In this document: positions 715 through 45,366 of the stretch, one piece after another | Layout of the letters: the number at the start of each line of letters is the position of its first letter | Numbering within the stretch: the stretch's first letter is position 1 | From: a virus | IMG/VR virus record: IMGVR_UViG_3300003155_000005 | Coordinates: 1-64,000 of that record | Direction: 5' to 3' (one strand) | Length of the DNA: 64,000 nucleotides | Position numbers and translations under genes: made by a program | The notes under the pieces: generated by a model | The model's database searches: none | Told to the model about the DNA's origin: nothing | Seen by the model: only the letters and a program-made list of their open reading frames with translations

Positions 715-1015
715 AATGTAAAGTGATTAAAAGGTTTGTAAAAAATTTTATTAAAGGCTCAAACATTTCAAAGACCGTGCGCGGCTATCGTTGTTCCCTA
801 ACCGCATTACAAAGATAGCGAAAAAAGATAAAACGCCAAAAAAATCCCGAAAAAATCGCATATTTCGCATAAATGTTTAATAATTGAACCCCCACCCCGC
901 CGATTATTTCCATTTGTTAAAAAATTGAACCAAAAAAATTAAATGATTTTCCAAACGAAACGGGAGGGGGCGAAAAAAGCTAACTGTCCTCTCGTTCACA
1001 ATACCTACACAATTT

Positions 1016-1064: not shown

Positions 1065-1469
1065 ATGATAAAACAAATCATTTTTCAAAATTTAGGGGGG
1101 GGGATTATTTTAAGATTTAATACAGATGCAGGAAAATTATTAGAAGAATCTTCTTATAATGGAAATCGTTTTCTTCCCGATAAAAAATTAAAGTCTATAT
1201 ATCTTTATGGAGATAAAAATTTAACAATAAATGATTTTGAACCTACTAAAAATTTGTTAGAAATTAAGTTTCCAATAGAAGATTTATCTTTAATATTTGA
1301 TAAGTTATCAACAGATATATACGGAAATGAGATTGAAATAGGATGTACATATGAAGATGATTCTGAACCACTCACCTATATTAATGTCACTCCAAATATT
1401 ATCGAAAATATGGAAGATTATGTAATATACATATCACCTGGTACTTGATATTATATAAATATAACTTAG
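1065..1469 (+). CDS. poly-G family paralog A (small protein, N-terminal QNLGGGIILR motif), G tract in frame
   Basis: ATG 1065. G9 at 1095..1103 encodes GGG in frame. Shares the LEIKFP motif with the other paralogs. The track ORF stops at TGA 1446-1448; under code 4 it runs to TAG 1467-1469. Confidence 0.6.
1095..1103 (+). repeat. G9 homopolymer inside paralog A (in frame)
   Basis: tta ggg ggg ggg att, counted directly. Such a tract is very unusual in ~30% GC DNA. Confidence 0.9.
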
Positions 1470-1471
1470 TA

Positions 1472-2923
1472 ATGCAAGCAAACAAGTATTTTCAAGTAAA
1501 AGAATTAGTATCATCAAATATCTACAAAGAATATGGAGATGATGCTATAAAATTTTTAGATCCAAAAGCACTTAAAGCTTTAGAGAACGTTAGAGAGATT
1601 TTAGGAGTTCCTCTGATTTGTAATAACTGAGCAGCAGGTGGATCTAGAAATTATAGTGGTTATAGAGAGCCAGGATGTGGAGTTGGAGTTAAAAATAGTT
1701 ACCATTGTATAGATATAAATACTGAAATACTTACAAACCATGGTTGAAAAACTTATAATACAATAGATATCCAAAATGACAAAGTATATAGTTATAATAT
1801 AGATAAGAATGGAATAGAAATAGTGCCAATTCAACAATATTTCTTTCAAAAATATGACGGAGAAATAATTCAAATACAAAATAAGTTAATTGATATTTTT
1901 GTAACAGATCAGCATAGACTTTTAACTAAGGCGAAGAATAATTATAAAGACCGTGAGTTTTATAGATTTGAACTAGCAAAAGATTCATTTGGCAAACGTA
2001 GAGAAATAATGAATGCTGCTAATAACTTAAGTGTTAGTGAAGATTTTGATTTAAATATTTGGCGATTAGCAATGGCAGTTATTGCTGATGGTTCAATTTC
2101 TAAAAAAAATATTAGAAAATATAATAATTTTGTATTTAAGTTGGTTAAAGAAAGAGATATTAATGAATTGGAAAACATTCTATATAATCTTAATCTATCT
2201 TATAGTAAAACTAAAGTTATTAGTTATTATTTATCAAATGGCGATCCTTATTATTGTTGGCAATATATACTTCCAGTAACGAAAGTCACAAAGTCGGTTT
2301 TAGATATAATTGGAAAGAATAAGAAAATACCTAATACTGTATTAGAACTTCCCTCTTATATATTGAAGGAATTATTAATTACATATGCTAAATTTGATGG
2401 AACAATTGATAAACGAACTAATTGTAACTGCATGACCATATACTCTACAGACGAACATAATATCGATATGCTGCAAAAAATGAGTATACTTGCAGGAATG
2501 CGATGTATTAAAAGATCGTTTACAAATCAGAAAGTAATATGTAATAATATTGAAACTACAATTCGTGAAATACATCATTTATATATCCACTTAAATAGGT
2601 CTGAAACTAGAATTAACGAAAAGGATTGATCTAAAAAACAATTTTCTGGATATGTTTGATGTGTTAGTAACCGTAATGAGACTATTATAACTCGAAGAAA
2701 TGGCAAAATCGCAATTATTGGAAATTGCAAAGGACAAGCTTTTGATTTAATATCAAGTAAAATGACAGCTAAAGAGATGAGAGATAAGTTAGAACAAAAT
2801 CAAGATAAACTTATCTATCCAATTCGTGTTGAGAAATGAGAGGGTAACAAAGAAATAGGTTGACTTCATATCGATATTTCTCCTAATACACATGGACAAA
2901 AATTATATTTTTTTAAAGCATAA
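1472..2923 (+). CDS. M15-family zinc peptidase (endolysin-like L-Ala-D-Glu / D-Ala-D-Ala peptidase fold) interrupted by an intein
   Basis: Single frame joins track ORFs 1445..1630 and 1823..2629 through in-frame TGAs and ends at TAA 2921-2923. Spliced exteins give ...NSYH|CKGQAFD..., restoring the S-x-H-x-x-G-x-A-x-D zinc motif. A later GWLHID histidine is also present. ATG 1472 is preferred over TTG 1445. Confidence 0.75.
1706..2725 (+). mobile_element. intein with LAGLIDADG homing endonuclease domain (340 aa)
   Basis: Starts with Cys1 (CIDINTEILT). Block B is VTDQHRLL. LAGLIDADG motifs are LAMAVIADGSI and LLITYAKFDGTI. Ends ...AIIGN followed by +1 Cys. Contains in-frame TGA codons. Confidence 0.75.
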
Positions 2924-2930
2924 AACAATT

Positions 2931-3347
2931 ATGACACAATCATTTATATCACAAAACTTAGCGGGGGGGGGCGTAAAAATTTATAGATTAATAACAGAGC
3001 CTGTCACATTTACTATAAAAGACAATGCCCAAAAACTACATCTTCCTATGGAATTAAAATCAACAGATTCTTTACTTATGGAGTATACTATAGGTAAGGT
3101 GAGTTTAAATAATGTGAATGGCCTTACTTGTTATACAACACAAAGAAATACAGCAATTTTGCCATTACAGGGCGTAGATGTACTGAAGAATATGGGGAAA
3201 CTAATAATTCCTATGTTTAGTGGTACTGAGAAAAAATTTATAGGAATACAGTACTATCCTCATGATTTTGATTTTGTCTTTATGCAATACGGTTCAGACT
3301 CAACTGGCATTCCATTTATTATACATGAATTATATCTTCTTAGATAA
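2931..3347 (+). CDS. poly-G family paralog C (MTQSFISQNLAGGGVKIYRL...), G tract in frame
   Basis: ATG 2931 lies just after the stop of the peptidase gene. G9 at 2963..2971 is in frame. Ends at TAA 3345-3347. Confidence 0.6.
   Translation: MTQSFISQNLAGGGVKIYRLITEPVTFTIKDNAQKLHLPMELKSTDSLLMEYTIGKVSLNNVNGLTCYTTQRNTAILPLQGVDVLKNMGKLIIPMFSGTEKKFIGIQYYPHDFDFVFMQYGSDSTGIPFIIHELYLLR
2963..2971 (+). repeat. G9 homopolymer inside paralog C (in frame)
   Basis: gcG GGG GGG GGc, counted directly. Confidence 0.9.
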
Positions 3348-3387
3348 CAAAACTTTAAACAATTTTTTAAAAATGATTTCTCTCTTT

Positions 3388-3721
3388 ATGGCACAAAACA
3401 TCACTAATAGGGGGGGGGTTATTTATTCGTAAGACAGTAAATACCTTTAGTACCTCCACAGTAATTGCACAGAATGGATATTTTTATAAAAATAATTCAT
3501 TTGAGGGTTTTAAATTTAACACATCCCGTTTAAATAATGGAGATAGTTTTATAATTTACCAATCAGAGGATAATGGAGGTCCTTATACATTTACTGACCC
3601 AATTGCTTCAAATACTATTATACAAAGTGGTGCAACTGAAAAGCGCAATATCGAAATTAGTTATATATTTAAATGAGATGATGAATTAAATAAATTAACA
3701 TTTATTATGCAGAACGAGTAG
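3388..3721 (+). pseudogene. poly-G family paralog D, reading frame broken at the G tract (phase-OFF state or homopolymer miscall)
   Basis: ATG 3388 reads MAQNITNRGGVIYS then stops at 3430. Removing one G (G9 to G8) opens a 110-codon frame to TAG 3719-3721 (MAQNITNRGGLFIRKTVNTF...KWDDELNKLTFIMQNE) with the family motif GG-hydrophobic-I-R. Confidence 0.5.
3410..3418 (+). repeat. G9 homopolymer in paralog D (out of frame by +1)
   Basis: Counted directly. The downstream ORF is in the frame reached by deleting 1 G or adding 2 G. Confidence 0.9.
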
Positions 3722-3755
3722 ATATACTATTATATTTTTGAAGTAATTGTCTTTT

Positions 3756-3795
3756 AAAACCGCTCTTTTATTAGGAGCGGTTTTATTTTGTTTTT
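3756..3795 (+). terminator. rho-independent terminator
   Basis: Perfect 10-bp stem AAAACCGCTC / GAGCGGTTTT followed by a T-rich run. Confidence 0.65.
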
Positions 3796-3817
3796 ACTAA
3801 AACAATAATTATATTTG
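3787..3817 (+). promoter_or_regulatory. Bacteroidota-type promoter (-33 TTTG 3787..3790, -7 TATATTTG 3810..3817)
   Basis: Both boxes present with a 19-nt spacer, 22 nt upstream of ATG 3839. The sequence TTATATTTG-N-A-N-N-GA-N-CAAATA recurs at 9109 and 37396. Confidence 0.55.
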
Positions 3818-3838
3818 TAGTGATCAAATAATGTAATT

Positions 3839-6097
3839 ATGAAAACATGGTATAGGAAAATTTCAAGAGGGCCAGATGAGCTTCAAGGTTATTTACCCAG
3901 ATTCAACACTGAAGAAAGGGAAGAACCAAGGCCTCAAACTGTTGCCTCCCCTATAATTGATAGTATTGAAACTTCAGAAGAAGAACCTAGAGCCGAGAAA
4001 GAATCAAAACCTACATATACAACTAGTGCAGATACTACTTCATCTTCATTTAAAAGTAAGAATGAATTTAAGGCTACTATGTTACCTATTTATGAGAGAA
4101 TCCTTTCTCAAATGGGTTTAAATACAGCCTATGCCAAAGCACTAGTTGCACAAGATGGACTTGAATCTGCCTGAGGAACTAAGCCTTCTGGTAAATTTAA
4201 TTTTGGAGGTATTAAAGGAAAAGGCTCTGTAAAAAGAACAAGAGAAGTTATTAATGGGAAAGATGTTTATATTAATGATAGTTTTAGAGATTTTGATTCT
4301 TTAGAAGACTATGCAAAATATAAAATTTCTCTACTTAATAATAATAGATATAAAGCTTTTACTGGAGATATATCTGGATTTGCAGATAGGGTTTTTAGAG
4401 GAGGATATGCAACTGATCCAAATTATGCAGAAACATTAAAAAGAGTAATAGCTTCTGCAAAACACGGAGGTATACTCAAATTTCAAGCAGGAGGAACTGG
4501 AGAAATTAGACCAGATAATAGATCTTGACTTAGAAGAAAGTGAGATAATGTTATTACTGCATATAATTCAAGTAGTTGGGCAAATTCTGCTCCCGCTAGT
4601 GTTATAGCAGGATTTACTCCTTATGGTTTATTTCATTATTCTGCATCAGGAGATGAAGATTCAGCTAGATTAGCTGTATTACCTGGTGCTGTGGGAACAA
4701 AAGAAGTTGCTAAAAATGCGGTAAAAGCTGCAGAAGAAGGTGTAAACTTAGTTTATAGGCATTATGGGAATGATATTTCTAAATACTTTCAAGGTGCTTT
4801 AAAATGGTTACGGAATGCTCGTAAAGGTAGTATTCCAGCTGCCGAAAGATTAGAAGTACCTAAACAAATTTCTAAAATTAGATTAGGAAATCCAAAACAT
4901 GACTATGCATTCTTTAAAGATGCAAAGACTGGAGAAACAATTTTAGAAATAAGTCAAACTGCACAAAATCCTTTACGTTCGGGAGAGAAGGCTGCATCAA
5001 AGCAGCTTCTTCAAGAATTAGTTGGAACTAAAGATGATTTTGGATTAAGAGGATTATCTTATACAGAGAAGGAATTATTTCCAAAGAAATTCTTATCTGC
5101 AATGACTCAGGAAAATAGTGCTAAAGATATCTATTCCAAAATTATGAGTTACAAAGCAGAAGCTGGAATTAGATCCTCTTTTACAGAATTAACTGAAGCA
5201 GAAGCTAGAAAAATCTTTGATATAGGTTGGGATGCTAATATGTTTTATCCAACTACAAGCTCTAATGCTTTACAAACTAAAGAAACCTTCTGGAAAGAGA
5301 ATAAGGATATCATTTTGAAACTATTTAGAAGAGTCCCTGCGATACTTGGAGCAGGTGTTCTTGGAAATGAGGTAGTATCAGAACGTAATAGAGGAATTAT
5401 TAAAGCTCAAGATGGTGCAGATACTCGAAAATGAGTTGATAATTGGCTTTCACAGAGGAAGGATAAACTTAAAAATAATTCTGTTTATTCAGGATGATTG
5501 GCAATACCTGGATTAATAGAAAATCCTTATTTTAGACAATCTGCATCTATGAGTAAATACTCTTTTAAAAGAGGAAAACTCCCAGGTAAAATTACAGGAC
5601 AGACTAATCATAAAGAGAAAACTATAACTACTTCTGATGATAGTAAGAGTACAGAAGTTCATGAATGGACCCATGCAGCCAGACCTTATGAACAAATAGC
5701 TAAGGTTAAAGAAATTATTGATAGATGAGGATTAAAGCCTGGTGTAATACGAGATGATTATTGGGATGATCCTGCAGAAATTTATTCCAGAGTAATGGAA
5801 TTTAGATATAACAATAACTTAGATCCAAATCATGACTATACTTTAGAAGAGGTACAAGAACTTAGAAATAAGAACCATACAGGCGATTATTTAATTAGAA
5901 CAGAGAATCAGTTCTATAAAAGTAATATAAACAATCCAACTATTCCTAAGAAAATTGAACCCATAGAAAAAGCTATAGATATGAATCTTTATAAAGGGCC
6001 TGAAGAACTTTTCGAAAGGCTTGATGATTCTACTATACAGAGATTACTAAATGATGTAGCATGAGTTCCTAAAAAGAACTCTACGTTACATACCTAG
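3839..6097 (+). CDS. large multidomain cell-wall hydrolase: GH73 N-acetylglucosaminidase domain plus a downstream HExxH motif region (752 aa)
   Basis: Track ORFs 3839, 4691, 5498 and 5795 are all in one frame, joined by in-frame TGAs. Ends at TAG 6095-6097. The GH73-like stretch is LVAQDGLESA-W(TGA)-GTKPSGKFNFGGIKG...YATDPNYAETLKRVI. A HEWTH motif lies near 5660. Confidence 0.8.
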
Positions 6098-6126
6098 TTT
6101 AAAATAATTTATAAATATATACATTT

Positions 6127-6375
6127 ATGTTTGCATTAAGAAAAATTACAAATGACGGTTTAGAAATGAATTTTAGTTTAGGAGACTCTTATACTTTAGT
6201 TACAAAAGATCGTTCTCCGAAAGAATTTGAAGATAAAATGAAAGACCATCCTTTTTATGATAAAGCCTATGCTTTTATTTATTGTAAGGATGAGATATTA
6301 CCGTTATATAAAACTCAGAAAAATTATATTGTTTCTGAAAACGGAACAACTTATAGTAACTTAACATATAAATAA
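6127..6375 (+). CDS. hypothetical protein (82 aa)
   Basis: Complete ATG..TAA ORF, tightly packed with neighbouring genes. Confidence 0.5.
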   Translation: MFALRKITNDGLEMNFSLGDSYTLVTKDRSPKEFEDKMKDHPFYDKAYAFIYCKDEILPLYKTQKNYIVSENGTTYSNLTYK

Positions 6376-6376
6376 T

Positions 6377-6562
6377 ATGAAACTTTCTCTTAAACACAAA
6401 TTAATCATTGCTGCAATTATACTTGGTGTATTAATTGGAGGCATTGGTATTTTCCAAGCTTTAGGCTTCTGGAAAACACTATTAATGGCCATATCATTTA
6501 TTGGCGGAGTAGCTACTGGATGGTATGCAAAATTTATTAAAGATAAATATTTTAATATATAA
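6377..6562 (+). CDS. small membrane protein, two predicted TM helices (holin-like by size and topology only)
   Basis: MKLSLKHKLIIAAIILGVLIGGIGIFQALGFWKTLLMAISFIGGVATGWYAKFIKDKYFNI has two hydrophobic segments and a charged C-terminus. Confidence 0.5.
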   Translation: MKLSLKHKLIIAAIILGVLIGGIGIFQALGFWKTLLMAISFIGGVATGWYAKFIKDKYFNI

Positions 6563-6567
6563 TCAAA

Positions 6568-6890
6568 ATGGCAAATTATAGATTTCTTAATGGGGGGGAG
6601 TTGTTATAAGACTCCTTAATATTTCCAATCCTTATACAAGATTGGAAGTTCAAGATTTAATAAGTGGTGACACAATAATAGATCAGACATTTACTAAAAC
6701 ACAAGAAAAATTAGAAATTAAGGTGCCAATAACAGAGATGCAATATGACACGGAACATTTTCGTAATTATGCTCTAGGAATATGACTATATGACGGGTCT
6801 ATTAAAAACTATGAAATTGATGAATATGTAATGGAAGATATCCCTAAAAATGGGGATAGTACTTGACATTATTACACAATTGATGAATAA
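6568..6890 (+). pseudogene. poly-G family paralog H, frame broken at the G tract
   Basis: ATG 6568 reads MANYRFLNGGELL then stops at 6607. Adding one G (G7 to G8) gives MANYRFLNGGGVVIRLLNISNPYTRLEVQD...LEIKVPITEM...WHYYTIDE, ending at TAA 6888-6890. Confidence 0.5.
6592..6598 (+). repeat. G7 homopolymer in paralog H (out of frame by -1)
   Basis: Counted directly. Confidence 0.9.
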
Positions 6891-6908
6891 AATAAATAAA
6901 GTAAATAA

Positions 6909-7311
6909 ATGGCAGAAATTATATCTAAACAGGGGGGGGCTACTAATTAGAATTGATGTAAAACAACTACTGGCCCGAATAAATAACATATCAACTTTTT
7001 CTGATATTAAATGAATCAGCATTTTATCAGGAACTACAAATTCCTTTACACAAGAATTTGATTCTGCAATGACATCAGGAATAATTGAAATAAAAATACC
7101 TAGAACAGAGTTGTTAGAAGATAACTTTATAGATCCTGATGGAATTGAAATTGAATTAGGGGCAGGTTCAAGTAAATTATCACCTGAAGAAATAGATGGA
7201 TACTATATTTATTGTTATTATACAATAACAAACGATTCTAATACAAAATATAGTTCTTTTGTAGTGCCAGTTCCAAATGGAGCATGAGCACTAGCAATAC
7301 CTCAGTATTAA
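6909..7311 (+). pseudogene. poly-G family paralog I, frame broken at the G tract
   Basis: ATG 6909 reads MAEIISKQGGATN then stops at 6948. Deleting one G (G8 to G7) gives MAEIISKQGGLLIRIDVKQLL..., continuous with track ORF 7069..7287 (IEIKIPRTEL) and on through a TGA to TAA 7309-7311. Confidence 0.5.
6932..6939 (+). repeat. G8 homopolymer in paralog I (out of frame by +1)
   Basis: Counted directly. Confidence 0.9.
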
Positions 7312-7312
7312 T

Positions 7313-7702
7313 ATGAAATGATATATTAAACTGTTAAGATGGATCTGGGAGTTCCCGCAGTGTCTCCTAGGTCTTATCTTAACTAAATGTTATAATGTCG
7401 AACGTAAAGAGACATTTAAAGAAATTCCGATTTATGCAGGAGATTTTCCTGGAGGTATTTCATTAGGATTATACATCTTAATGGGGGAATCCAGCTGGAA
7501 ATATAATAGAAATTATATTAAACAACATGAATGGGGACATACTAGACAATCTCTATATTTAGGTCCTCTTTATTTACTAATTATTGGACTTCCAAGTATT
7601 ATTTGGGCTATGATTCATACTCCAAATTCTAAGAAATCATATTATTTTTTCTACACAGAGAGATGAGCGGATAAACTTGGAGGTATACCTAAAAGATATT
7701 AA
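7313..7702 (+). CDS. membrane protein with HEWGH (HExxH) motif
   Basis: ATG 7313, second codon region contains TGA (MKW...). Same frame as track ORF 7481..7666, continuing through a TGA to TAA 7700-7702. Has hydrophobic segments and QHEWGHTRQS. Confidence 0.55.
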
Positions 7703-7873
7703 TATATGGGAAACCTTTTATATCGCAAATATTACATTAGCAACAGGAGGATTTACCTATGAAAATGGTATATTAACTCCTGCAGAAGCAAAAACTATTT
7801 ATAATCTTAATGTACCATCAAATGTATTAGTATCTGCTAACGGACTATTATGAATTAAACTAAATAATACTAA

Positions 7874-8260
7874 AACTGCCGCTCAGATTGTCATCTCTAT
7901 AATGCTACTTCTGATGAATTTGTAGATTGATCTGAGGTTAAATCTAATCTATGAGGTGGAGGCATTAAAAACGCTCCTTATTTAACCTTAAGTACTCCTG
8001 ATCGAGATATTAACACCGCTTTTACAATGATAACAGCTGATAATCAATCATTAATGTTTTTTATAGATCCAGCAGTATATACACAAATAAATTCAACTAC
8101 AGCTGTAACATTTATAGATAAAACTCAAGGATATAGACTACAATGTAACTTAGATGGTTCTTATTGAATTCCTGAATTAAAAACTAATGGAGTGTTTTTA
8201 GGTTTTAATTCTGGAAATAGTTTAGTAGAAATGCCGTTTAGAGGATTATATAAAATATAA
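7874..8260 (+). CDS. divergent member of the poly-G family with the Gly triplet encoded by non-repetitive codons (start codon unresolved)
   Basis: Open frame from 7874 to TAA 8258-8260. Contains ...SNL-W(TGA)-GGGIKNAPYL, with GGG written ggt gga ggc at 7955..7963. There is no in-frame ATG near the expected start. The upstream frame 7704..7925 (ANITLATGGFTYENG...) looks like another decayed copy. Confidence 0.35.
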
Positions 8261-8263
8261 ATA

Positions 8264-8301
8264 AAAAGGGAACCCTATTAAGGTTCCCTTTTCTATTTTT
8301 T
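8264..8301. terminator. bidirectional rho-independent terminator between convergent gene sets
   Basis: 11-bp stem AAAAGGGAACC / GGTTCCCTTTT flanked by A-rich and T-rich runs. + genes end at 8260 and minus genes end at 8373. Confidence 0.65.
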
Positions 8302-9161: not shown

Positions 9162-9902
9162 ATGGAAAATTTCCTTCAATGGATTGAGAAAATTCTGGAG
9201 TTTTTGAAGAACTATGGGTTTTTAAATATTATTAAGTCATGTATTTTAATAATTTTATTTGCATTTACTGTGAACATTGCCTTCAATCCAAAAGAAACTA
9301 TTAAAAACATTATTGAATGGGTTCATGCAATTGAGAAGGAAAAGCATGCTACAAGCGAAGAAATTCGCAGGCATGTTAATCCTGTTATTAATGAATTATT
9401 AGATAATTCTATACGGGATATAGGATGTGATAGGGCTTTTATTATGGAAGGGCACAATGGAAAAGCAAATGATAGCGGATTAGGTTTTTATTACGTAGAT
9501 ATGACTTATGAAAGATGTAGAAAACCCTCATTAGATCAAGCAGTATATTGGCAATACAAAGATATGCCAACCAGTATTTTCCCTTTCTTCAATTATTTGG
9601 ACAAACGCAGATATTTTTATGGGGGTTCAGATGAATTATCCCAAATAGATTCTAAGTTAGCTCAAATGATTAATATCAACGGCACACATTTCTTAGTAGC
9701 TGTTGAAATTCCAGGAAAAAATTCTGCTAATCAATTTATGGGAATACTTGGTTATTCTTTTGAAAATTCCCCCAAACTTACTCAAGAACAAATAAAAGAT
9801 TATATGCTTGAGGTGAGAAGAAGGGTTCAAATACTATTATCGTTAACTTCTTTGAAAGAAGTTGACATCAATCAATTTCGAGAAGCAATATGCCTAAATT
9901 AA
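9162..9902 (+). CDS. hypothetical protein with N-terminal TM segment (246 aa)
   Basis: Complete ATG..TAA ORF. No TGA; its Trp codons are all TGG. Confidence 0.65.
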   Translation: MENFLQWIEKILEFLKNYGFLNIIKSCILIILFAFTVNIAFNPKETIKNIIEWVHAIEKEKHATSEEIRRHVNPVINELLDNSIRDIGCDRAFIMEGHNGKANDSGLGFYYVDMTYERCRKPSLDQAVYWQYKDMPTSIFPFFNYLDKRRYFYGGSDELSQIDSKLAQMININGTHFLVAVEIPGKNSANQFMGILGYSFENSPKLTQEQIKDYMLEVRRRVQILLSLTSLKEVDINQFREAICLN

Positions 9903-11818
9903 AAAATGTTAAGGAAAAATATGTAAATGGCCTTAAAGTAGACAAAGAGACAAAGGATGTAGTATACTCTGATGAAGCTCATGTATATATAGACAAAACA
10001 GATCAACAAAAATATATTTCTGTTACTACTTTAATTGGCAAATATGAGAATCCTTTTGATGTATTTTTTTGGTCTTCCTATAAAACTTGCGAGAAGTTAA
10101 TGTCGGAAGAAACTTTTCATGTACTTAAAGAAACTTTATTAGCTACAAAGAGGTGGACAGATGATATGATTGAAAAGCTTCATCTTGATCCAATTATCTT
10201 TGATAAAACAAGAAAAGAAATACAAAAAGGATATGATGATGAGAGAAATAAATCTTGTGAAAGAGGTACAAAAATACATTCTAATTTTGAAGAGATGTAT
10301 TATACTTCAGAGAAGCAAGATTTAAAAAAGTTTGGTTTAGGAGGAGTTTTTACTTGTAAAAAAGGATATTACGAACTTGATTTAGAAAAAGGAGTATACC
10401 CAGAATTTTTGGTTAGCTTAAAATCTTCCGATGGAATATTACGAGTTGCTGGACAGATAGATTTACTAATTAAAGATGGAAATGACATCTATATTTATGA
10501 TTACAAAGGACTTCCATTAGATACTAAAATCCCTACTAAAACAGGATGGACTACAATTAGAGATATAAAGGAGGGAGAAGAAATATTTGATAAAAATGGA
10601 AACCTTACTAAGGTACTTCATAAATCAGATATTCATTATAATCCTTGCTTTAAAATTACATTTGATAATGGAGAGTCTATAATTGCGGACCATGAACATA
10701 GATGGCTAATATCTTTTAGAAATCCAGATAAAACATTTAGAGAAACTGTATTAACTACAGAAGAGTTGGCAAAATGAATAATTGAAAAGCCAAGAACTTC
10801 ATATAATATCCCAAAAATAAAAAATGCACAGCCTTTAAATCTTCCAGATATAGATTTACCTATAGATCCTTATGTTTTAGGTTGCTGGTTAGGAGATGGC
10901 AGTAAATCTAGTGGGATTATTACTAATATCAATGATAAGATATGGGAAGAAATTCAAAATAGAGGCTATTCTGTGGGAAATAATCTTTCTGGAGAGAATC
11001 ATGCAGAAATGCGAACTGTCTACAATATTAGAGGAATATTAGATGAGCTAGGAATATTACATACTAAGTTTATTCCTGATCTCTATATGAGAGCTTCTTA
11101 CCAACAAAGGTTAGACTTACTACGTGGATTAATGGATACAGATGGTTATTATCATGAATCTAGAAAAAGATTTGTGATGGGAACAACTCAAAAATGGCAA
11201 GCAGAAGATCTGTTTAAATTAGTAAGTACATTAGGTATAAAAGCCACTATTTTTGAAGTAGATAAAAAATGTAATGGAAAAATATTTAAAGGTTGGGATG
11301 TATGCTTTTCAACAAATGGTTTAAATCCATTTTTAGTTAGAAATCAAAATATTGACTTTCCAAAAACTGACAAAAATTCTTTCAGAAATATTATTTCTGT
11401 AGAAAGAGTGGATACTATAGCAACACAGTGTTTAGAAGTAGATAGTCCTTCTCATACGTTTTTGTTTGGGGATTCTATGATAGTTACACATAATACAAAT
11501 AAGGAAATAAAGAAGCGTTCTTACTACGATCAAACTAAATGATCTAATGTAATGATGAAATACCCATTAAATAATATAATGGATTGTAATTATTATCATT
11601 ACACATTACAACTATCTTTATATGCTTATTTGTTACAACAAATTAAACCTGAGCTAAATATCAAGAAATTAACATTAATACATATAGATCATAATGATAA
11701 AATTACAGAATATTCTGTAGATTATCTTAAAAATGATGTAGAAAGAATGTTAAAACACTATAAAAAGCTTTTAAAACAGACGACTATACTTGATAGAGAT
11801 CGTCCTATTATATTTTAA
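9890..11818 (+). CDS. PD-(D/E)XK (RecB/Cas4-like) exonuclease interrupted by an intein
   Basis: Track ORFs 9890, 10973 and 11552 share one frame through TGAs at 10775 and 11540. Exteins carry ERGTKIH, GQIDLLIKDGNDIYIYDYK|TNKE and QLSLYAYLL nuclease motifs. Confidence 0.8.
10508..11494 (+). mobile_element. intein (329 aa) with LAGLIDADG endonuclease domain; class 3-like W-C-T signature, Gly at position 1
   Basis: Begins GLPLDTKIPTKTGW. Block B is GESIIADHEHRW (His B10, Trp B12). LAGLIDADG motifs are LGCWLGDGSKSSG and LRGLMDTDGYYH. Block F is TQCLEVDSPSHTF (Cys F4). Block G is MIVTHN followed by +1 Thr (Thr G5). Confidence 0.7.
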
Positions 11819-22073: not shown

Positions 22074-23819
22074 ATGAAAAGAAATAATATACTTCCAGAT
22101 GTTGATTTGCAAACTTCTCGTGAATGCTATGGAGCAACTAATTCCAGAGATTTTTATAAAGGAAAATCTTTCAATTTTGCTAAAGCTTGAGCTCCTGGAG
22201 TTGCCTATTATAACAGTAGCTACATTCAAGATTTTGTAGCTTATAATGGCGCTCTTTTAGCTTGTCATAGAAGCCATGTCTCAAACAATGATCTGGAACC
22301 TGTATTACTTTATACGGATCTTGAACATCCAGAAATACCTACAGGTGTAGACTCTCCTCTTTGGGAATTTGTATTTGCAGGTACTCCAGGTGCAGCTGGG
22401 GATGAAGGTAAACCTGGCCAGGTGTACGTACCTAAATACAATGAGTCTACAGGATATGTTACTTGAACTTTAGAATCAGGTGCTTCTCAAATTTCTCCAA
22501 TGTATATCAAGGGTGATAAAGGAGAAAAAGGTGATCCTGGTGCAACAGGATCAAAAGGAGAAAAAGGTGATCCTGGTTCTAGAGGAGAAAGAGGACCTCA
22601 AGGAGAACAAGGACTTAGAGGACTTCAAGGGGAGCAAGGACCCAGAGGACTTCAAGGTATTCAGGGAGAAAAAGGAAATAAAGGTGATAAGGGAGATCGA
22701 GGTGATAGAGGACCTGCTGGAACTGCGGCAACTATCAGAGTAGATTCTGTTATTACTGGAGATCCTGGTTCTCAAGCTTCTATCGTAAATGTCGGAACCG
22801 CTTCTGAAGCTGCTTTCAGATTTACTATTCCAAGAGGCCAACAAGGAGTTCAAGGTATTCAGGGAGAAAAAGGAGACAAAGGAGATAAAGGAGAACAAGG
22901 TCCTAAAGGTAAACAATTAAAGTTGTATCGAGACTTTACTGATGATACAATTAAATGAGGATATGATGGGGAACTGCCTAGTCAATGGACAGTTCTTTGT
23001 TATATGGACTATCTACGAGGAGTCAGTATTGATGATGTTGATATTACCGACGATGCTCATCTTAAAGTGACATTATCTTCTGGACATTATACATGAACCC
23101 CAGATGAAGATGGAAACCCAATTAAAGATGAAAATGGAAATATTATATATGATCGCTGAATCCCATCAACTATAATTACTAAGGGCAAAGCAGCAGCTAC
23201 ACTTACTGCTGGTAAAGTAGAAATGCTACGCCCAGGAGAAGATCCTAAAATTGAAAATGTGGGTACAATCAAAGATCCTATTTGAGATTTTTATATACCC
23301 AGAGGATTTACTGGGAATCATGCTGTACATGTTGGCCCAGAAGATCCTGTTACTTTTAGGAACTCCCATTTAGATGATGCTGACATTCAAGAAGCCTATA
23401 AGAATGCAGAGCAAATGATTTGGGTTGATACCAAAGATAAAGCAGAATTTGATCATTTAAATGCTGTATATCATGCATATAAAGAAGCTGGAGGAACTGC
23501 TTTAGATCAATCTAAGTTTGCTGAGGCTTTTGCTAATTTAACTAATGCTTCTGGATTCTCTATACAGATTGTTGAGAGCTTTGAAGCACTTGGGGAACCT
23601 ACAAAAGATAAACAAAACATAATTTGGTTAGTTCCTGCTTCTCAAACTGAAGTTAATAATCTATATGATGAATATATAGTGGTTAAATCTTCAAATACTA
23701 TGCTTGATACCTATTTTTGGGAAAAATGAGGTAATGGCACTATAACTGTAGATTTATCTAACTACTATACCAAAGCTGAAGTAGATACTATTATGATGTG
23801 AAATGATGTTACTAATTAA
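22074..23819 (+). CDS. collagen-like repeat tail fibre protein (581 aa)
   Basis: ATG 22074. Same frame as track ORFs 22500 and 23415 through about 8 in-frame TGAs. G-X-Y runs lie at ~22512..22719 and ~22833..22911. C-terminal LSNYYTKAEVD motif is shared with the other fibres. Confidence 0.7.
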
Positions 23820-26111: not shown

Positions 26112-26136
26112 ATAATTCTTCTCCCTCCCTGAAAAT

Positions 26137-26145
26137 GGGGGGGGG
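26137..26145 (+). repeat. G9 homopolymer at the 5' end of a fibre gene
   Basis: atG GGG GGG GGa. Preceded by the complementary CTCCCTCCC (26121..26129), which can form a 9-bp hairpin. Confidence 0.9.
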
Positions 26146-26161
26146 AGTTAATTTAAAAAGA

Positions 26162-27859: not shown

Positions 27860-30067
27860 ATGGCAAAAATTACAAATAGATTCGTTCATTTTAAGACGAA
27901 AGCCAGTTTCACTTCACGATTGGAAGCTGGTGATATCCAGGAATCAAGTGTTGTGTTCATCCAGGATGCAAATGAAATTTGGACACACGGAACATATTAT
28001 AAATGTAATATTAGTAGAGCTGAAGTTGAAGCTTTAATAATTTCTAAAGGTTATATTACTGAAGCAGATATTCCTTCATTAACAGGAGGGGCGGCTGCAA
28101 CTTCAGGTCAATATGTATCAGGAGTTACAGTATCAGGACATACTGTAACTGTCACTAAGGCTGCTTTACCTAGTGCGGCCACAGTTGCTCCTAAAGCATC
28201 TGGAACAGCGGACGTTGGTACCTCAACTAAATATGCAAGAGAAGATCACGTTCATCCTTCACAAACTACAATAAGTGGAAATGCAGGAACTGCAACAAAA
28301 TTAGCTACACCAAGAGTTATAGCAATAGCTGGAGCAGTATCTGGTAGTGCTACTTTTGATGGTTCTGACAATGTATCTATTAATAGTACATTAAATAATT
28401 TTGATGCTTCAAAGATTACTTCTGGCACTCTTAGTGCTGATAGACTTCCAGAAATTCCCATTTCTAAAATTCCTGCAGCTGCATTAGAGAGATTATATGT
28501 AGTAGAATCTGAATCCGCTGCAGTTGCTTTGAAGATACAAGAAGGTGATGTAGTTCAAATTGGCTCAGGAGGACCTATGTACTTCTGTATATCAGAATCT
28601 GCATCTACTTTTGCAACTAAATTTAAAGTATTTACAGCTGGAGCTGCAACAAGTGTACCCTGGTCTGGTGTAACTGGAGCACCTACAAAATTAAGTCAGT
28701 TTACTAATGACTCTGGTTTTATAACAAGTGTACCTGCTCAGACATGGGATAGTATTACAGGAAAACCTTCTACCTTTACTCCAAGCGCGCATACTCAAGC
28801 ATATACAACATTAACTGGTTCAACAACAACTGCAAATCAGGCTATTGTATCTAGTGGTACAGCTAATGGTTGAACATTGAAAACTCTTGGCAGTCTTGCT
28901 TTTAGTAGTGCAACAATACCTACAAAGACTTCACAATTAACTAATGATAGTGGATTTTTAACATCTGTGCCTGCGCAATCTTGGTCTTCAATTACAGGTA
29001 AACCTACTACATTAGATGGATATGGAATAACAGATGCTATTAAAAATACTACAACAGCTACAGCTACTACATTAGCAGCTGGAGCATCAGCAACTGCTGT
29101 TTATGACAAGGCTACTAATAAATTTACTTTTGGTATTCCAAAAGGAGCAACTGGTGCAACAGGAAGTACTGGTGCACAAGGTCCTAAAGGAGACAAAGGC
29201 GATACAGGGGCCACTGGAGCAACGGGTCCTAAAGGTGATACAGGAGCAAAAGGAGCAGATGGTATTACTCCAACTATTGGAACTAATGGTAACTGGTATT
29301 TAGGATCTACTGATACTGGAAAACCTTCTCGTGGTGCAACAGGTGCTACTGGAGCTAAAGGAGATAAAGGTGATACTGGATCTCAAGGCCCAACTGGACC
29401 TACTGGTCCTGCAGGAGCAGCAGCTGGATTTGGTACACCTACCGTAGATAATTCTGCAGCTGGAAATGTTGGAACTCCAAGTGTAACTGTTACAGCTTCA
29501 GGAGCTAATACTAGTAAAGTATTTAACTTTAAATTTAGTAACTTAAAAGGAGCTACGGGTGCGCAAGGACCGAAAGGTGATAAAGGAGACAAGGGTGATA
29601 CTGGAGCAACGGGTCCTGCTGGAACTTATACAGCTGGTTCAGGAATATCAATTAGTGGTAATACTATTTCTGCAGATATTCCAGTTGCATTACCTAATCC
29701 TTATGCGTTAACAATTAATGGACAGTCATATACTGGTTCTTCTTCAGTATCTATAAATACTGAATTAGATCCTACTATATTATCGTCTGCTCTTATAGAT
29801 GCTGGCAATAGTTATTCATTCTCGGCCAGTAATAAACAAACTTTACGTCTTAGAAATTTTTCAGCTAACAACAGTACCGCAATATTATATAGTATGGCAA
29901 CTTATGACCATACATTTACAGTCTATTCTGGAGCTAGTATTCCTATCTATGAACAGCAATTAGGTAGCTATTCAGCAGAAAGTATTATAAAATATACTAT
30001 TATTTATCATCCTTATGCAAAATCTACAGGAGCCTTCTTTATTGAAAAGACTGTTCTAAATCCTTAG
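27860..30067 (+). CDS. collagen-like repeat tail fibre protein (735 aa)
   Basis: Track ORFs 27860 and 28877 are joined through TGA 28871 (TANG-W-TLKTLG). Three G-X-Y blocks lie at ~29138..29267, ~29330..29429 and ~29546..29621. Contains an internal duplicated TNDSGF(I/L)TSVPAQ(T/S)W module. Confidence 0.75.
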
Positions 30068-43184: not shown

Positions 43185-43853
43185 ATGACAATAGAAGCCA
43201 TAGCTAGTGCCGTGTGGAACAATGTCTACGACGGCCTAAAAGGAACTGTAAGTAACCCAGCAATGTCATTAGAACAATTAACTGATGAGGTTGTTGCAGA
43301 AAGAAATAATATTGCAAAAGAATATCTTTTAAAAGGAGTTATGACTTTACAAGAACTTTATAATGCAGTAAATTGTGTTGAAGTTAATTGTGATTTTATG
43401 TCAAAGTGTTGTGATCTTCCAGTTGGAAAGAAAGCTTTGCACTTTGAAATTCCTCCTATTCTTCTTATGAATGGAGTTTCCACAATTCAATTTGTAGGAA
43501 GTATAGATAGACAAGAACAATATAGTGTTTATACTGATGTAAGTTATAAATTTCATTTCTTTAGAAAGAGAGGAGCTGATAAACCATTTGTTTATATAGA
43601 TCCTACAATAAACTCTAATGGCAACATTGATGGTTATATCTTTAATGTTCCTTTTGTAAAATATATTTCAGTAATTGCAATTTTTTTAGATCCAAGAAAA
43701 CTATTAGAATTTGATTGCTGTAATGATTCTGAAACTATAACAGAATGTGGAATTATCTCTAATGATATTATTCATAGACTTACTGAGAAAAAGATTAGAT
43801 ATTACAGAACTGCGATGTTACCTGCACAACCAAATACTCAAACACCTTTATAA
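43185..43853 (+). CDS. hypothetical structural-module protein (222 aa)
   Basis: ATG 43185 lies downstream of the terminator and is preferred over GTG 43140. Confidence 0.55.
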   Translation: MTIEAIASAVWNNVYDGLKGTVSNPAMSLEQLTDEVVAERNNIAKEYLLKGVMTLQELYNAVNCVEVNCDFMSKCCDLPVGKKALHFEIPPILLMNGVSTIQFVGSIDRQEQYSVYTDVSYKFHFFRKRGADKPFVYIDPTINSNGNIDGYIFNVPFVKYISVIAIFLDPRKLLEFDCCNDSETITECGIISNDIIHRLTEKKIRYYRTAMLPAQPNTQTPL

Positions 43854-44689
43854 TGATTAGGGGTATTATTTACAAATATACATCTCCTTCTGGAAAAGTA
43901 TATATAGGACAAACTTTAAATGAGAAGAAAAGACGCCAAAGTTGATTTAATTTAAATCGCCCATATGCGGGCCCAAAAATTAATGCTGCGAGAAAGAAAT
44001 ATTTATCTGAAAATTTTGAGTATGAAGTAATATTTAGAATAGAGTCCTTAATTAAAGAAGAGGTAATTGAGATGTTAAATAATAAAGAAAGACAATATAT
44101 TCAATTGTTTGATTCTATCTATAACGGATATAATATTTCAATAGGTGGAGATTCAACTCTTCATATCTATTCCTCAGAAACCAAGAAAAAAATTTCAGAG
44201 CGTGCAAAACTGAGATATAAAGATTCTCGTAATAGACATATAACTTCGGAAGCAATAAAAGAATATTATACTACACATAAGAGTGTTGTTAGAAAACCTG
44301 TACTACAATTTTCTATTGAAGGTATATTTATTAGAGAATGGGAGTCTGCGAAGGCAGCTGGAGAAGCATTAGGAATACATGCAAATAGAATAACCACTTG
44401 TTGCAAAGGGCATAGAAACTATGCAGGGAGTTCTATATGAAAATATAAAACAGATTTCATAGAAATCCCATTAAAGATCTCTATAGGAGTTCAAAAAGGA
44501 TCCACACTTCCTGTATATCAATATAATTCAGATGGAATTTTATTAAAACAATGAACTTCTATTACAGAGGCAGCTAAGGAATTAGGATATAGTTTAAGTA
44601 ATTTTAGTACCTACTGTAATGGGAGAAATAATCATGAATATAAAGGGTTTTATTACTTTAGAGGACAACACAAATATGAAACTACATAA
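43853..44689 (+). CDS. free-standing GIY-YIG homing endonuclease (278 aa)
   Basis: ATG overlaps the upstream TAA. The N-terminus MIRGIIYKYTSPSGKVYIGQT is identical in protein to the intron 3 enzyme. Three in-frame TGAs (43942, 44438, 44552). NUMOD-like repeats are present. Ends at TAA 44687-44689. Confidence 0.75.
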
Positions 44690-45365: not shown

Positions 45366-45366
45366 T

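What the first reader, a model, noticed from the sequence alone, without database searches (positions are those of the whole stretch)
1065..8260. Paralogous small-gene family with a G7-G9 homopolymer at the same N-terminal position; three copies are off by exactly one G
At least six small genes (starts 1065, 2931, 3388, 6568, 6909, plus a divergent copy around 7874) share an N-terminal pattern M-x(6-9)-G-G-(G)-hydrophobic-hydrophobic-(I/L)-R. They also share a later (L/I)-E-I-K-(F/V/I)-P motif.

In five of them the Gly codons are written as a pure G run:
- G9 at 1095..1103
- G9 at 2963..2971
- G9 at 3410..3418
- G7 at 6592..6598
- G8 at 6932..6939

Two are in frame as given. Three terminate after 13-14 codons, yet each regains a full-length family-like ORF with a one-G change (3388: -1 G; 6568: +1 G; 6909: -1 G). 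The divergent copy encodes the same GGG as ggt gga ggc (7955..7963). So the protein motif does not require a homopolymer, and the G runs are a nucleotide-level property.

Runs of 7-9 G are very unexpected in ~30% GC DNA. The pattern is what slipped-strand contingency loci (or programmed transcriptional slippage) look like: a bank of ON/OFF-switchable variants. The family is interleaved with cell-wall hydrolases, which suggests a host-surface or lysis-related role. I know of no described system of this kind in Bacteroidota phages.
Basis: partly seen in the sequence, partly recalled or inferred. Interest (0 to 1): 0.9.

Follow-up and report, generated by a model that had tools for sequence, protein, structure and literature searches.

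The report
Poly-G on/off switches in gut-phage genes
A large uncultured human-gut phage carries runs of 7-9 G just after the start codon of five small genes, and the same runs differ in length (6-13 G) between near-identical phage genomes from other people, switching each gene in or out of frame; this looks like the heritable "contingency" switching known from Campylobacter phages.

Summary
The five G runs are at the stated coordinates, on the coding strand, 22-32 nt after a start codon. F1 and F2 are in frame; F3, F4 and F5 are one G out. Runs of G7 or longer give 15 hits against 1.0 expected, and GGG is only 8.4% of Gly codons here.

In about 70 related contigs from independent human-gut assemblies, orthologous tracts range from G6 to G13. 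The same gene is ON in some samples and OFF in others, with the downstream ORF intact. Every interrupted ("locked") tract is in frame. Contigs break at tracts more often than expected. General homopolymer error is excluded.

Two corrections. The "divergent copy" at 7874-8260 is the C-terminal remnant of a 363-aa member, so its ggt-gga-ggc is not a valid control. The shared element is a short N-terminal module (leader, Gly linker, first beta-strand) on partly unrelated beta-sandwich proteins.

A sixth G9 (26137) is the arm of an intergenic hairpin, not coding.

Best reading: slipped-strand contingency loci, confidence about 0.68. Read-level switching and protein function remain untested. Poly-G switching in phages is already known (Campylobacter Fletchervirus; T-even contingency loci), so this is a new variant in a distantly crAss-like gut phage clade.

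The parts
1065..1469 (+). F1, 134 aa (code 4), leader MIKQIIFQNL + GGG + IILR; ON as given
   Evidence: The product is identical to P0171. Orthologous tract lengths are 6, 8, 9, 11, 12 and 13. ON products are recorded on about 32 contigs and truncated OFF calls on about 41.
1095..1103 (+). G9 tract of F1, 30 nt after the ATG
1472..2923 (+). Context: endolysin-like protein (483 aa) interrupted by an intein/LAGLIDADG-like insert
   Evidence: PHROG 894 endolysin, E=1.3e-16 over residues 1-80; LAGLIDADG_3 match is weak. Relatives without the insert are 143-158 aa.
2931..3347 (+). F2, 138 aa, leader MTQSFISQNLA + GGG + VKIYR; ON as given
   Evidence: Orthologues are G9 ON in eight genomes counting the window, G8 OFF in two, and interrupted GGGGGGAGG (ON) in five. 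The body is very variable between close relatives.
2963..2971 (+). G9 tract of F2, 32 nt after the ATG
   Evidence: Contig L075 starts exactly at this tract.
3388..3721 (+). F3: the frame is broken at the tract. As given it encodes MAQNITNRGGVIYS*. With -1 G or +2 G it gives a 110/111-aa protein
   Evidence: There is no start codon in the downstream frame between the stop at 3368 and the tract (read). ON alleles exist elsewhere: P0019, P0020, P0022, P0025, L075 with G11, and L085 with an interrupted tract.
3410..3418 (+). G9 tract of F3, 22 nt after the ATG
   Evidence: The flank-anchored count gives G9 in 7 genomes, G10 in 5, G7 in 2, G6 in 1 and G11 in 1.
3755..3785 (+). Terminator-like hairpin that ends the F1-endolysin-F2-F3 unit
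   Evidence: 13-pair stem followed by a T run.
3839..6097 (+). Context: 752-aa protein with an N-acetylglucosaminidase domain; used as the anchor to fetch relatives
   Evidence: Pfam PF01832, E=7e-17.
6568..6890 (+). F4: the frame is broken at the tract. As given it encodes MANYRFLNGGELL*. With +1 G it gives 107 aa. A second ATG (6590-6592) abuts the tract and gives MGGGVVIR... when n=6, 9 or 12
   Evidence: Leaderless ON products P0008, P0215-217 and P0224 are on about 10 contigs, and 82-aa OFF calls are on about 10. L074 and L077 have G9 and are ON from the abutting ATG.
6592..6598 (+). G7 tract of F4, 24 nt after the ATG
6909..7311 (+). F5: out of frame from ATG 6909 (MAEIISKQGGATN*). With -1 G it gives 133 aa. 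With G8 the body is in frame with the upstream ATGs at 6850 and 6883
   Evidence: Orthologues are G6, G8 and G9. In L078 the F4 leader and tract are joined directly to this body.
6932..6939 (+). G8 tract of F5, 23 nt after the ATG
7874..8260 (+). Start-less C-terminal remnant of a ~363-aa family member; not an N-terminal copy
   Evidence: Identical to the C-terminus of L002 +13133 / P0026. LWGG is an internal conserved motif.
8264..8292 (+). Bidirectional terminator-like hairpin that ends the second unit
26118..26147 (+). Separate element: an intergenic hairpin whose 3' arm is the sixth G9 (26137-26145). It lies between two tail-fibre-like genes, and the fibre gene most likely starts at the ATG of MQLSFQK downstream
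   Evidence: In relatives the tract (G6-G10) lies 20-35 nt upstream of the fibre ATG and pairs with a C/T-rich arm.

Best explanation
The five coding G tracts are slipped-strand contingency switches.

Anatomy. Each tract sits 22-32 nt after the start codon in the window, and up to 45 nt in relatives. It lies inside a Gly-Gly-(Gly) linker between a 7-11 residue leader (MIKQ(F/I)I.QN.. or MA.....) and the first beta-strand of a small beta-rich protein.

Mechanism. During phage DNA replication the G7-G13 run gains or loses bases. Changes of 3 only alter the number of glycines and are tolerated. Other changes move the body out of frame, leaving a 13-25 residue peptide (OFF), or bring it back in frame (ON). 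Where an ATG abuts the tract (F4 and several relatives) there is a third state, a leaderless protein starting MGGG. With 3-5 such genes per genome, every burst would contain a mixture of expression combinations that selection can sort.

Protein function. The proteins are fast-evolving. The large members are tandem Ig/FN3-like beta-sandwiches with hypervariable surface patches. I therefore infer a role at an interface with the host or environment: virion decoration or adhesion, or a target of host defence.

Shown: the tracts, their non-random position and codon choice; heritable length polymorphism between genomes; ON and OFF alleles of the same gene; intact bodies in OFF alleles; in-frame state of all interrupted tracts.

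Inferred: that switching is fast and reversible within one phage population; that it is adaptive; and what the proteins do.
For: 1. Tract excess and codon choice. G7 or longer gives 15 hits against 1.0 expected. GGG is 8.4% of Gly codons, and other GGG tripeptides avoid runs.

2. Same position in bodies that are not demonstrably homologous. hhalign aligns only residues 1-22 between the small and large groups. Synonymous differences in the leader (ATA/ATT, AAA/AAG, CAA/CAG) show that it is translated.

3. Length polymorphism among 98-99% identical genomes from independent SPAdes, MEGAHIT and Logan assemblies.
- F1: 6, 8, 9, 11, 12, 13.
- F2: 8, 9, or interrupted.
- F3: 6, 7, 9, 10, 11.
- Cluster 0: 7, 8, 10, 12.
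- Cluster 1: 6, 9, 10, 12.

4. ON/OFF balance.
- After removing duplicate loci there are 61 tract instances in 21 orthologue clusters, 30 ON and 31 OFF.
- F1 products are ON on about 32 contigs and OFF on about 41.
- F4 is about 10 ON and 10 OFF.

5. OFF alleles need +1 in some genomes and -1 in others (F3: G9, G10, G7), so there is no fixed recoding direction.

6. All interrupted tracts are in frame: F2 GGGGGGAGG in five genomes, L009 gggggaGGGGGG, L062 twice, and L085.

7. Invariant Trp columns of the family are TGA codons in the OFF copies F4 and F5. More diverged orthologues give pN/pS of 0.4-0.65.

8. Seven of 49 contig termini lie within 130 nt of a tract, three of them inside one.

9. 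This is not general homopolymer error. A/T runs of 5-6 vary in 4 of 143 cases, and the long ORFs, which contain many A7-A8 runs, are intact.

10. Fold. The AF2 model of P0026 has pLDDT 81.6, with residues 1-13 disordered and three all-beta domains. Foldseek hits are tandem Ig/FN3-like adhesins and phage tail-fibre or tip proteins. The 366-aa family has six hypervariable patches.
Against: - No read-level data. Differences between consensus assemblies show heritable polymorphism, not the switching rate within a population.
- Long A/T runs (7-9) also vary between genomes, so instability is a general property of long runs rather than special to these tracts.
- The ON fraction of pure tracts, about 23 of 51, is only weakly above the 1/3 expected if frame did not matter.
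- F3 is OFF in 15 of the 17 genomes examined.
- Several clusters give pN/pS above 1 with very few synonymous changes. This fits diversifying selection but also relaxed constraint.
- G tracts of 9 or more could also make RNA polymerase slip, so OFF alleles may be leaky.
- Virion association is untested, and the Foldseek TM-scores are low (0.14-0.25).
- The AF2 model of the small family was poor (pLDDT 52).
Confidence: 0.68

Rival explanations
1. Recoding rather than genetic switching. The G tract is a site of transcriptional slippage (or ribosomal frameshifting), so every allele yields some full-length protein whatever the DNA tract length. The DNA length then drifts neutrally.
For: - Tracts of 9 or more equal the length of the RNA-DNA hybrid, and long homopolymers are known slippage sites (established knowledge for A/T runs).
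- The modal length is 9-10 whether the allele is ON or OFF.
- The ON fraction of pure tracts, about 45%, is not far from one third.
- F3 is OFF in nearly all genomes yet keeps an intact ORF.
Against: - There is no conserved tract length and no constant shift direction: lengths run from 6 to 13, and both +1 and -1 are needed.
- The zero-frame product is only a 13-25 residue peptide, so there is no two-product logic.
- All interrupted tracts, which cannot slip, are in frame. That outcome is expected only if the DNA frame matters.
- G7 (F4) and G6 alleles are short for efficient slippage.
Confidence: 0.15
2. Mutational hot spots without a switching function. The G run persists because it encodes the Gly linker or promotes recombination, and the OFF alleles are simply broken accessory genes on their way to loss.
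For: - pN/pS is 1 or above in several clusters.
- Leader-plus-tract remnants without bodies exist (L003 8656, L007 9321, L050).
- The window carries the remnant at 7874-8260.
- In L074 the F5 start is lost.
- L078 has a deletion running between two tracts.
Against: - The codon choice is far from the genome's usage and is maintained in at least 21 orthologue clusters.
- ON and OFF alleles of the same gene coexist across many samples, with intact 100-365 codon bodies.
- More diverged orthologues are under purifying selection, with pN/pS of 0.4-0.65.
- A Gly linker does not need a homopolymer.
Confidence: 0.12
3. Sequencing or assembly artefact: homopolymer miscalls in the source assembly create apparent frameshifts.
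For: - Three genes are off by exactly one G.
- Long G runs are hard for some platforms.
- Contigs break at tracts.
Against: - The same OFF length recurs in independent assemblies: F3 is G9 in the window and in L042, L077, L078, L081, L082 and L084.
- Differences of up to 5-7 bases separate samples (G7 against G12, G6 against G13).
- The many A7-A8 runs inside long ORFs cause no frameshifts.
- Several assemblers and cohorts agree.
Confidence: 0.04
4. Nucleic-acid structural element. The G runs are arms of hairpins, terminators or G-rich regulatory motifs rather than coding switches.
For: This is true for the sixth tract at 26137 and for a G-rich/CT-rich pair upstream of F1.
Against: - The five coding tracts have no C/T-rich partner. 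The only C run of 5 or more near them is at 889-893.
- They sit between a translated, conserved leader and a conserved beta-strand motif.
Confidence: 0.02

Closest known systems
Hypermutable poly-G tracts in Campylobacter Fletchervirus phages (Sorensen et al. 2021, Cell Rep 35:109214; cited in PMC10877375 and PMC12823448)
   Same: These are poly-G runs inside phage protein-coding genes. Their length variation switches expression and creates phenotypically mixed progeny. Several tract genes occur per genome, in an AT-rich genome.
   Different: - The phage lineage is unrelated. This one is a ~170-kb, TGA-recoded, distantly crAss-like human-gut phage. P0026 has no tblastn hit in 50,697 GenBank phage records.
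- Here the tract lies in a shared leader/Gly-linker module at the extreme 5' end of small Ig-like proteins of unknown role.
- Switching and its phenotype are shown experimentally in Campylobacter phages, and only comparatively here.
Phage contingency loci in T2/T4 and other cultured phages (Gomez, Barrick and Waters 2025, bioRxiv, PMC12633550)
   Same: Simple-sequence repeats in phage genes give reversible frameshifts by polymerase slippage, interpreted as bet-hedging.
   Different: - Those are mostly short runs (6 or more, often poly-A) scattered through ordinary genes of all classes. Mutant frequencies measured from reads average about 3e-4 per run, though phenotypic reversion assays gave higher values.
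- Here the G7-G13 runs go strongly against composition and codon usage. They sit at one fixed position of a dedicated gene set, and OFF alleles dominate whole assemblies.
Bacterial contingency genes with 5' homopolymers (Campylobacter, Haemophilus, Neisseria poly-G/C; general knowledge, reviewed in PMC4235727)
   Same: - The homopolymer lies near the 5' end, so the OFF product is a short peptide.
- There are multigene sets with conserved 5' ends.
- ON/OFF polymorphism occurs between isolates, and alternative start codons give intermediate states.
   Different: Here the carrier is a lytic-type phage genome rather than a cell. Replication is by a phage polymerase, and there is no mismatch-repair context.
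Programmed frameshifting or transcriptional slippage that adds Ig-like domains or makes two products in phages (for example tail chaperone G/GT; Ig-like domains added by frameshift, Fraser et al. 2006; from memory)
   Same: A slippery homopolymer, a frame change, and Ig-like beta-sandwich proteins in phages.
   Different: Those sites have a fixed sequence and direction and yield two functional products in a set ratio. Here length and direction vary, and the alternative product is a 13-25 residue peptide.
Diversity-generating retroelements of gut and crAss-like phages (for example PMC12386605)
   Same: A phage-encoded way to diversify host-interaction proteins in the gut. The targets are often Ig-like or lectin-like surface domains.
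   Different: DGRs rewrite codons through reverse transcription. Here diversity is presence or absence of whole proteins through tract length. I did not look for an RT or a TR/VR pair.

Membership tests
Simple-sequence-repeat contingency locus (slipped-strand phase variation) | Homopolymer or short repeat inside the coding region (or promoter) of the regulated gene | tested here: met
   G7-G9 lies 22-32 nt after the ATG in five genes.
Simple-sequence-repeat contingency locus (slipped-strand phase variation) | The repeat is not explained by base composition or codon usage | tested here: met
   15 hits against 1.0 expected. GGG is 8.4% of Gly codons, and other GGG tripeptides avoid runs.
Simple-sequence-repeat contingency locus (slipped-strand phase variation) | Repeat length is polymorphic among otherwise near-identical genomes | tested here: met
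   G6-G13 at orthologous sites in backgrounds 98-99% identical.
Simple-sequence-repeat contingency locus (slipped-strand phase variation) | Length changes toggle an otherwise intact ORF between in-frame and out-of-frame | tested here: met
   30 ON and 31 OFF instances with intact bodies. ON and OFF products of F1 and F4 are in public data.
Simple-sequence-repeat contingency locus (slipped-strand phase variation) | High-frequency, reversible switching within a clonal population | not testable with these tools
   This needs reads or propagated phage. The only indirect hint is that 7 of 49 contig termini lie at tracts.
Simple-sequence-repeat contingency locus (slipped-strand phase variation) | The switch changes a selectable phenotype | not testable with these tools
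   Function is unknown. There is only fold-level evidence and hypervariability.
Fletchervirus poly-G receptor-binding-protein system | Sequence homology to the Campylobacter phage tract genes | tested here: not met
   No tblastn hit of P0026 in the phage collection. Only one unrelated DNA hit for the region. No PHROG family.
Fletchervirus poly-G receptor-binding-protein system | The tract genes encode receptor-binding or structural proteins | tested here: inconclusive
   The large member is predicted as tandem Ig/FN3-like beta-sandwiches. Foldseek hits to adhesins and tail-fibre/tip proteins have low TM-scores.
Programmed recoding site (transcriptional slippage / ribosomal frameshift) | Conserved slippery sequence of fixed length with one required shift direction | tested here: not met
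   Lengths are 6-13, and both +1 and -1 are required in different genomes.
Programmed recoding site (transcriptional slippage / ribosomal frameshift) | Heterogeneous RNA, or two proteins, made from one DNA sequence | not testable with these tools
   No RNA or proteome data.
Crassvirales (crAss-like phages), context only | Hallmark structural proteins homologous to crAss-like phages | tested here: inconclusive
   The portal is 25-27% identical over 33-43% of its length to cr113_1, cr109_1, cr60_1, cr4_1 and cr10_1. The MCP hits only two unclassified 'Bacteriophage sp.' records. The virion RNA polymerase was not examined.

The most novel reading that the evidence does not exclude
A widespread clade of ~170-kb human-gut phages carries a heritable combinatorial 'switchboard'.
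- It consists of three to five Ig-like surface or host-interaction proteins per genome.
- Each is gated by a poly-G tract in a portable leader/Gly-linker module.
- Each has up to three states: with leader, leaderless, or absent.
- The tracts also serve as recombination junctions that swap leaders and bodies or delete cassettes, as in the F4-leader/F5-body fusion in L078 and the leader remnant in L050.

This would be a phage counterpart to the phase-variable surface of gut Bacteroidota. It would also be a second diversification route alongside DGRs.
Probability: 0.35. Interest if true: 0.8.

Novelty: new variant of a known kind. Interest (0 to 1): 0.65.

Why it matters
Gut phages and their hosts coexist for years, and host phase variation is one accepted reason. 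The known phage-side counterpart is the diversity-generating retroelement. If these tracts switch as the comparative data suggest, a common uncultured gut phage lineage hedges its bets by turning whole proteins on and off.

This has practical consequences. Annotation pipelines call these genes as truncated or as pseudogenes. Assemblies break at the tracts. Strain tracking would miss functionally different subpopulations.

The idea is directly testable with existing deep metagenomes. It also identifies a small set of proteins worth locating in the virion.

Tried and rejected
- Pfam and PHROG scans of all window members and eight members from relatives found no family.
- The AF2 model of the F1 orthologue with a 16-sequence alignment had pLDDT 52, so it was not used for a fold search.
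- hhalign of the small family against the large family aligned only the first 22 residues (E=0.02). I therefore dropped the idea that the small proteins are the N-terminal domain of the large ones.
- I first read the sixth G9 (26137) as a phase-variable tail-fibre start. Relatives show the tract 20-35 nt upstream of the real ATG, in a conserved hairpin, so I rejected that reading.
- I accepted the 'divergent copy' at 7874 provisionally and then rejected it.
- Rfam gave no hit in the window. ARAGORN found no tRNA in the window.
- The sigma-70 promoter scan was uninformative: 53 sites against 47 expected.
- GenBank phages hold no close relative. The distant MT835470 has two G9 runs inside tail-fibre-like ORFs.
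- I considered a double-glycine leader or lipoprotein signal for the N-terminal peptide and dropped it on sequence grounds (from memory, not tested).
- I considered a DGR as the cause of the hypervariable patches. I did not test this.

Full report
**1. The observation**

The window is 32% G+C and is read with TGA as Trp. Long ORFs appear only with code 4. For example, the Pfam glucosaminidase domain of the 752-aa protein runs through the TGA at 4172-4174.

All are on the coding strand.

- F1 (1065-1469) and F2 (2931-3347) are in frame.
- F3, F4 and F5 stop after 14, 13 and 13 codons. Each regains a 107-133 codon ORF with -1, +1 and -1 G.

Chance is excluded.
- GGGGGGG occurs 15 times against 1.0 expected in dinucleotide-preserving shuffles.
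- GGG is only 8.4% of 1196 Gly codons in the long ORFs.
- The two ordinary Gly-Gly-Gly sites of the window are written GGTGGCGGA and GGAGGAGGA.

The 'divergent copy' at 7874-8260 has no start codon. It is the C-terminal ~115 residues of a 363-aa member seen intact in a relative (L002 +13133, P0026). Its WGGG is an internal conserved LWGG motif.

**2. What is shared**

The small proteins form a real but very divergent family, about 25% identical. Its motifs are GGG-(L/V/I)(I/V)IR, (L/I)EIK.P.ED and G.W.Y. F3 is the weakest member. It lacks the LEIK.P motif and matched the others only at its N-terminus in pairwise BLASTP. The invariant Trp columns are TGA codons in the window copies, including the OFF copies F4 and F5.

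Relatives also carry tract genes of 182-366 aa. Profile-profile comparison aligns these to the small family only over the first 22 residues.

The common element is therefore a short 5' module with three parts:
- a leader, either MIKQ(F/I)I.QN.. or MA.....;
- a Gly run;
- a first beta-strand.

Leaders differ by synonymous changes (ATA/ATT, AAA/AAG, CAA/CAG), so they are translated.

No Pfam or PHROG family matches any member. The small family is rare: 15 clusters in 1.84 billion representatives.

**3. Related genomes**

Using the neighbouring glucosaminidase protein as an anchor, I fetched three sets of loci:
- 18 loci from IMG/VR;
- 28 from metagenome assemblies;
- 16 more through exact protein look-ups.

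All are human-gut contigs, many 145-178 kb long, made with several assemblers. Five pairs are duplicates and were removed.

Tract genes occur at 3-5 per locus, on either strand, always with G on the sense strand.

Orthologous tracts differ in length.

| Gene or cluster | Tract lengths seen |
|---|---|
| F1 | 6, 8, 9, 11, 12, 13 |
| F2 | 9 (ON, eight genomes counting the window), 8 (OFF, two genomes), interrupted GGGGGGAGG (ON, five genomes) |
| F3 | 6, 7, 9, 10 (all OFF), 11 (ON), one interrupted ON allele |
| Cluster 0 | 7, 8, 10, 12 |
| Cluster 1 | 6, 9, 10, 12 |

 The genomes being compared are 98-99% identical around the tracts.

ON and OFF counts:
- Over 21 orthologue clusters I count 30 ON and 31 OFF instances. 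The modal length is 9.
- In the protein collection, F1 products with an intact N-terminus are recorded on about 32 contigs. Truncated calls that start downstream of the tract are on about 41.
- F4 is about 10 ON and 10 OFF.
- ON alleles of F3 exist: P0019, P0020, P0022, P0025.

Further points:
- Every interrupted tract is in frame.
- The direction of the shift needed by OFF alleles is not constant.
- Seven of 49 true contig termini lie within 130 nt of a tract, three of them inside one.

**4. Controls and limits**

- A/T runs of 5-6 almost never differ between the same genomes: 4 of 143, and 2 of 406 in the wider set.
- A/T runs of 7-9 often differ, by one to three bases.
- All G runs of 9 or more differ, and over a much wider range.

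Instability is therefore a property of long runs in general. What is special is that long G runs exist at all in this genome, and exist at this one position.

General homopolymer error is excluded by three facts. The long ORFs are intact despite many A7-A8 runs. The same OFF length recurs in independent assemblies. Samples differ by five to seven bases.

I could not see reads, so the switching rate inside one population is inferred, not shown.

**5. Extra anatomy**

- F4 has an ATG overlapping the first G of the tract. With n=6, 9 or 12 it gives a leaderless MGGGVVIR... protein. This is the only ON form of F4 found in public data. With n=8 or 11 the full leader would be in frame. The window's n=7 is the fully OFF class.
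- F5 with G8 is out of frame from its family-type start at 6909, but in frame with ATGs at 6850 and 6883. Its state is therefore ambiguous.
- The tracts also mark rearrangement junctions.
  - In L078 the F4 leader and tract are joined directly to the F5 body.
  - In L050 a leader plus G9 sits immediately upstream of the endolysin ATG, with the F1 body gone.
  - L003 and L007 carry leader-plus-tract remnants without bodies.
- Terminator-like hairpins at 3755-3785 and 8264-8292 divide the region into two units: F1-endolysin-F2-F3, and glucosaminidase...F4-F5...remnant.

**6. The proteins**

- The AF2 model of the 363-aa member P0026, built from a 91-sequence alignment, has pLDDT 81.6 and pTM 0.77. 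Residues 1-13 (leader and glycines) are disordered, followed by three all-beta domains.
- Foldseek finds tandem Ig/FN3-like adhesins and phage tail-collar fibre, tip-attachment and BIG2-type proteins. Probabilities reach 0.97 but TM-scores are low, 0.14-0.25, as expected for multi-domain chains.
- The ~366-aa family has 141 relatives at 90% clustering. It shows six hypervariable patches in an otherwise conserved sequence, plus many micro-variants around the tract: GGG, GGGG, GEG, EGGG, RGGG, GWGG.
- pN/pS is 0.4-0.65 for the more diverged orthologue sets. It is above 1, with very few synonymous changes, for the closest sets.
- The model of the small family was poor.

I infer, with low confidence, exposed proteins at a host or environmental interface.

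**7. The sixth tract**

In 17 relatives the G6-G10 run near the tail-fibre gene lies in the intergenic spacer. It sits 8-12 nt after the upstream stop and 20-35 nt before the fibre ATG (MQLSFQK or MTTNLSFQK). It pairs with a C/T-rich arm: eight predicted pairs, nearly all kept as C-G or U-G.

The apparent MGGGVNLKR start in the window is incidental. This tract is a hairpin arm whose length also varies. It is not part of the coding switch set.

**8. Comparison with what is known**

- Poly-G tracts that switch phage genes are established for Campylobacter Fletchervirus phages (Sorensen et al. 2021, cited in PMC10877375 and PMC12823448).
- Contingency loci in T-even and other cultured phages were reported in 2025 (PMC12633550).
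- Papers on crAss-like phages, including the zeta group, describe recoding, inteins and DGRs but no homopolymer switching.
- The present phage is only distantly crAss-like. Its portal is 25-27% identical to cr113_1 and others. It has no close relative, and no homologue of the tract proteins, in GenBank phage records.

**9. Verdict**

The contingency-locus reading is well supported by comparative data. It is a new variant of a known kind rather than a new kind.

Confidence that heritable slipped-strand switching is the main mode is about 0.68. The main rival, transcriptional slippage making frame irrelevant, is at about 0.15.

Noticed in passing
window 26118-26147: An intergenic hairpin between two tail-fibre-like genes: a C/T-rich arm, a 7-nt loop, and G9 plus AG. 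In relatives the G arm is G6-G10 and always lies upstream of the fibre start codon. It could be a terminator, attenuator or stability element whose strength varies with tract length.
   Followed up: partly
window 943-1000 (G5 at 966-970); L013 3707-3715 (G9); L017 8172-8177 (G6): A second G-rich / CT-rich inverted pair lies in the intergenic region upstream of F1, between divergent gene blocks. Its G run is 5 in the window but 9 in a relative.
   Followed up: no
L078 12321 (F4 leader + G7 + F5 body); L050 8355 (leader + G9 just upstream of the endolysin ATG); L003 8656 and L007 9321 (leader + tract remnants): Deletions and fusions have their junction at the G tracts. This suggests that the tracts act as recombination or misalignment points that shuffle leaders and bodies.
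   Followed up: partly
window 7677-8260: The start-less C-terminal fragment of a 363-aa family member is preceded by an ORF in another frame (7677-7931, TTG start). This looks like a rearranged or decaying cassette.
   Followed up: partly
whole window, e.g. 4172-4174, 1446-1448, 6785-6787: TGA is read as Trp throughout, at conserved Trp positions and inside Pfam domains. No tRNA gene lies in these 64 kb, so any suppressor tRNA must be elsewhere in the genome.
   Followed up: partly
window 1472-2923 and 9890-11818: Two proteins are interrupted by intein-like inserts with weak LAGLIDADG matches. One is the endolysin-like gene, which is 143-158 aa in relatives that lack the insert. The other is a 642-aa protein.
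   Followed up: no
window 2633-2638: An A6 run inside the intein-bearing endolysin ORF is A8 or A9 in three related genomes. The gene is called in two pieces in L081 and L082. I did not check whether the split coincides with the longer run.
   Followed up: no
window 33291-33947, 43853-44689, 45271-46326: Repeated ORFs start MIRGIIYKYTSPSGKVYIGQT or contain GYVYLSTCIVTQKVYIGIT. From memory they resemble GIY-YIG homing endonucleases. They are scattered among structural genes, which fits a genome rich in mobile introns and inteins.
   Followed up: no
P0026-P0125 alignment A8 (relatives of the remnant at window 7874-8260): The ~366-aa family has six sharply localised hypervariable patches in an otherwise >90% conserved sequence. 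I did not test whether this reflects diversifying selection or a DGR.
   Followed up: partly
MT835470.1 112042-112050 and 112715-112723 (L022): A distant relative (MCP 54% identical, 36% G+C) has exactly two G9 runs. Both are internal to tail-fibre-like ORFs, next to a TKQQ(V/F)ND.L-type motif.
   Followed up: no
window 22074-23819 and 27860-30067: Tail-fibre-like proteins contain collagen-like Gly-X-Y repeats (GEKGDPGATGSKGEKGDPG...).
   Followed up: no
protein look-up: The exact F1 product (P0171) and the F4 OFF product (P0214) are recorded from NCBI WGS JFBN01 on a 178,906-bp contig. That contig is probably the source of this window.
   Followed up: no
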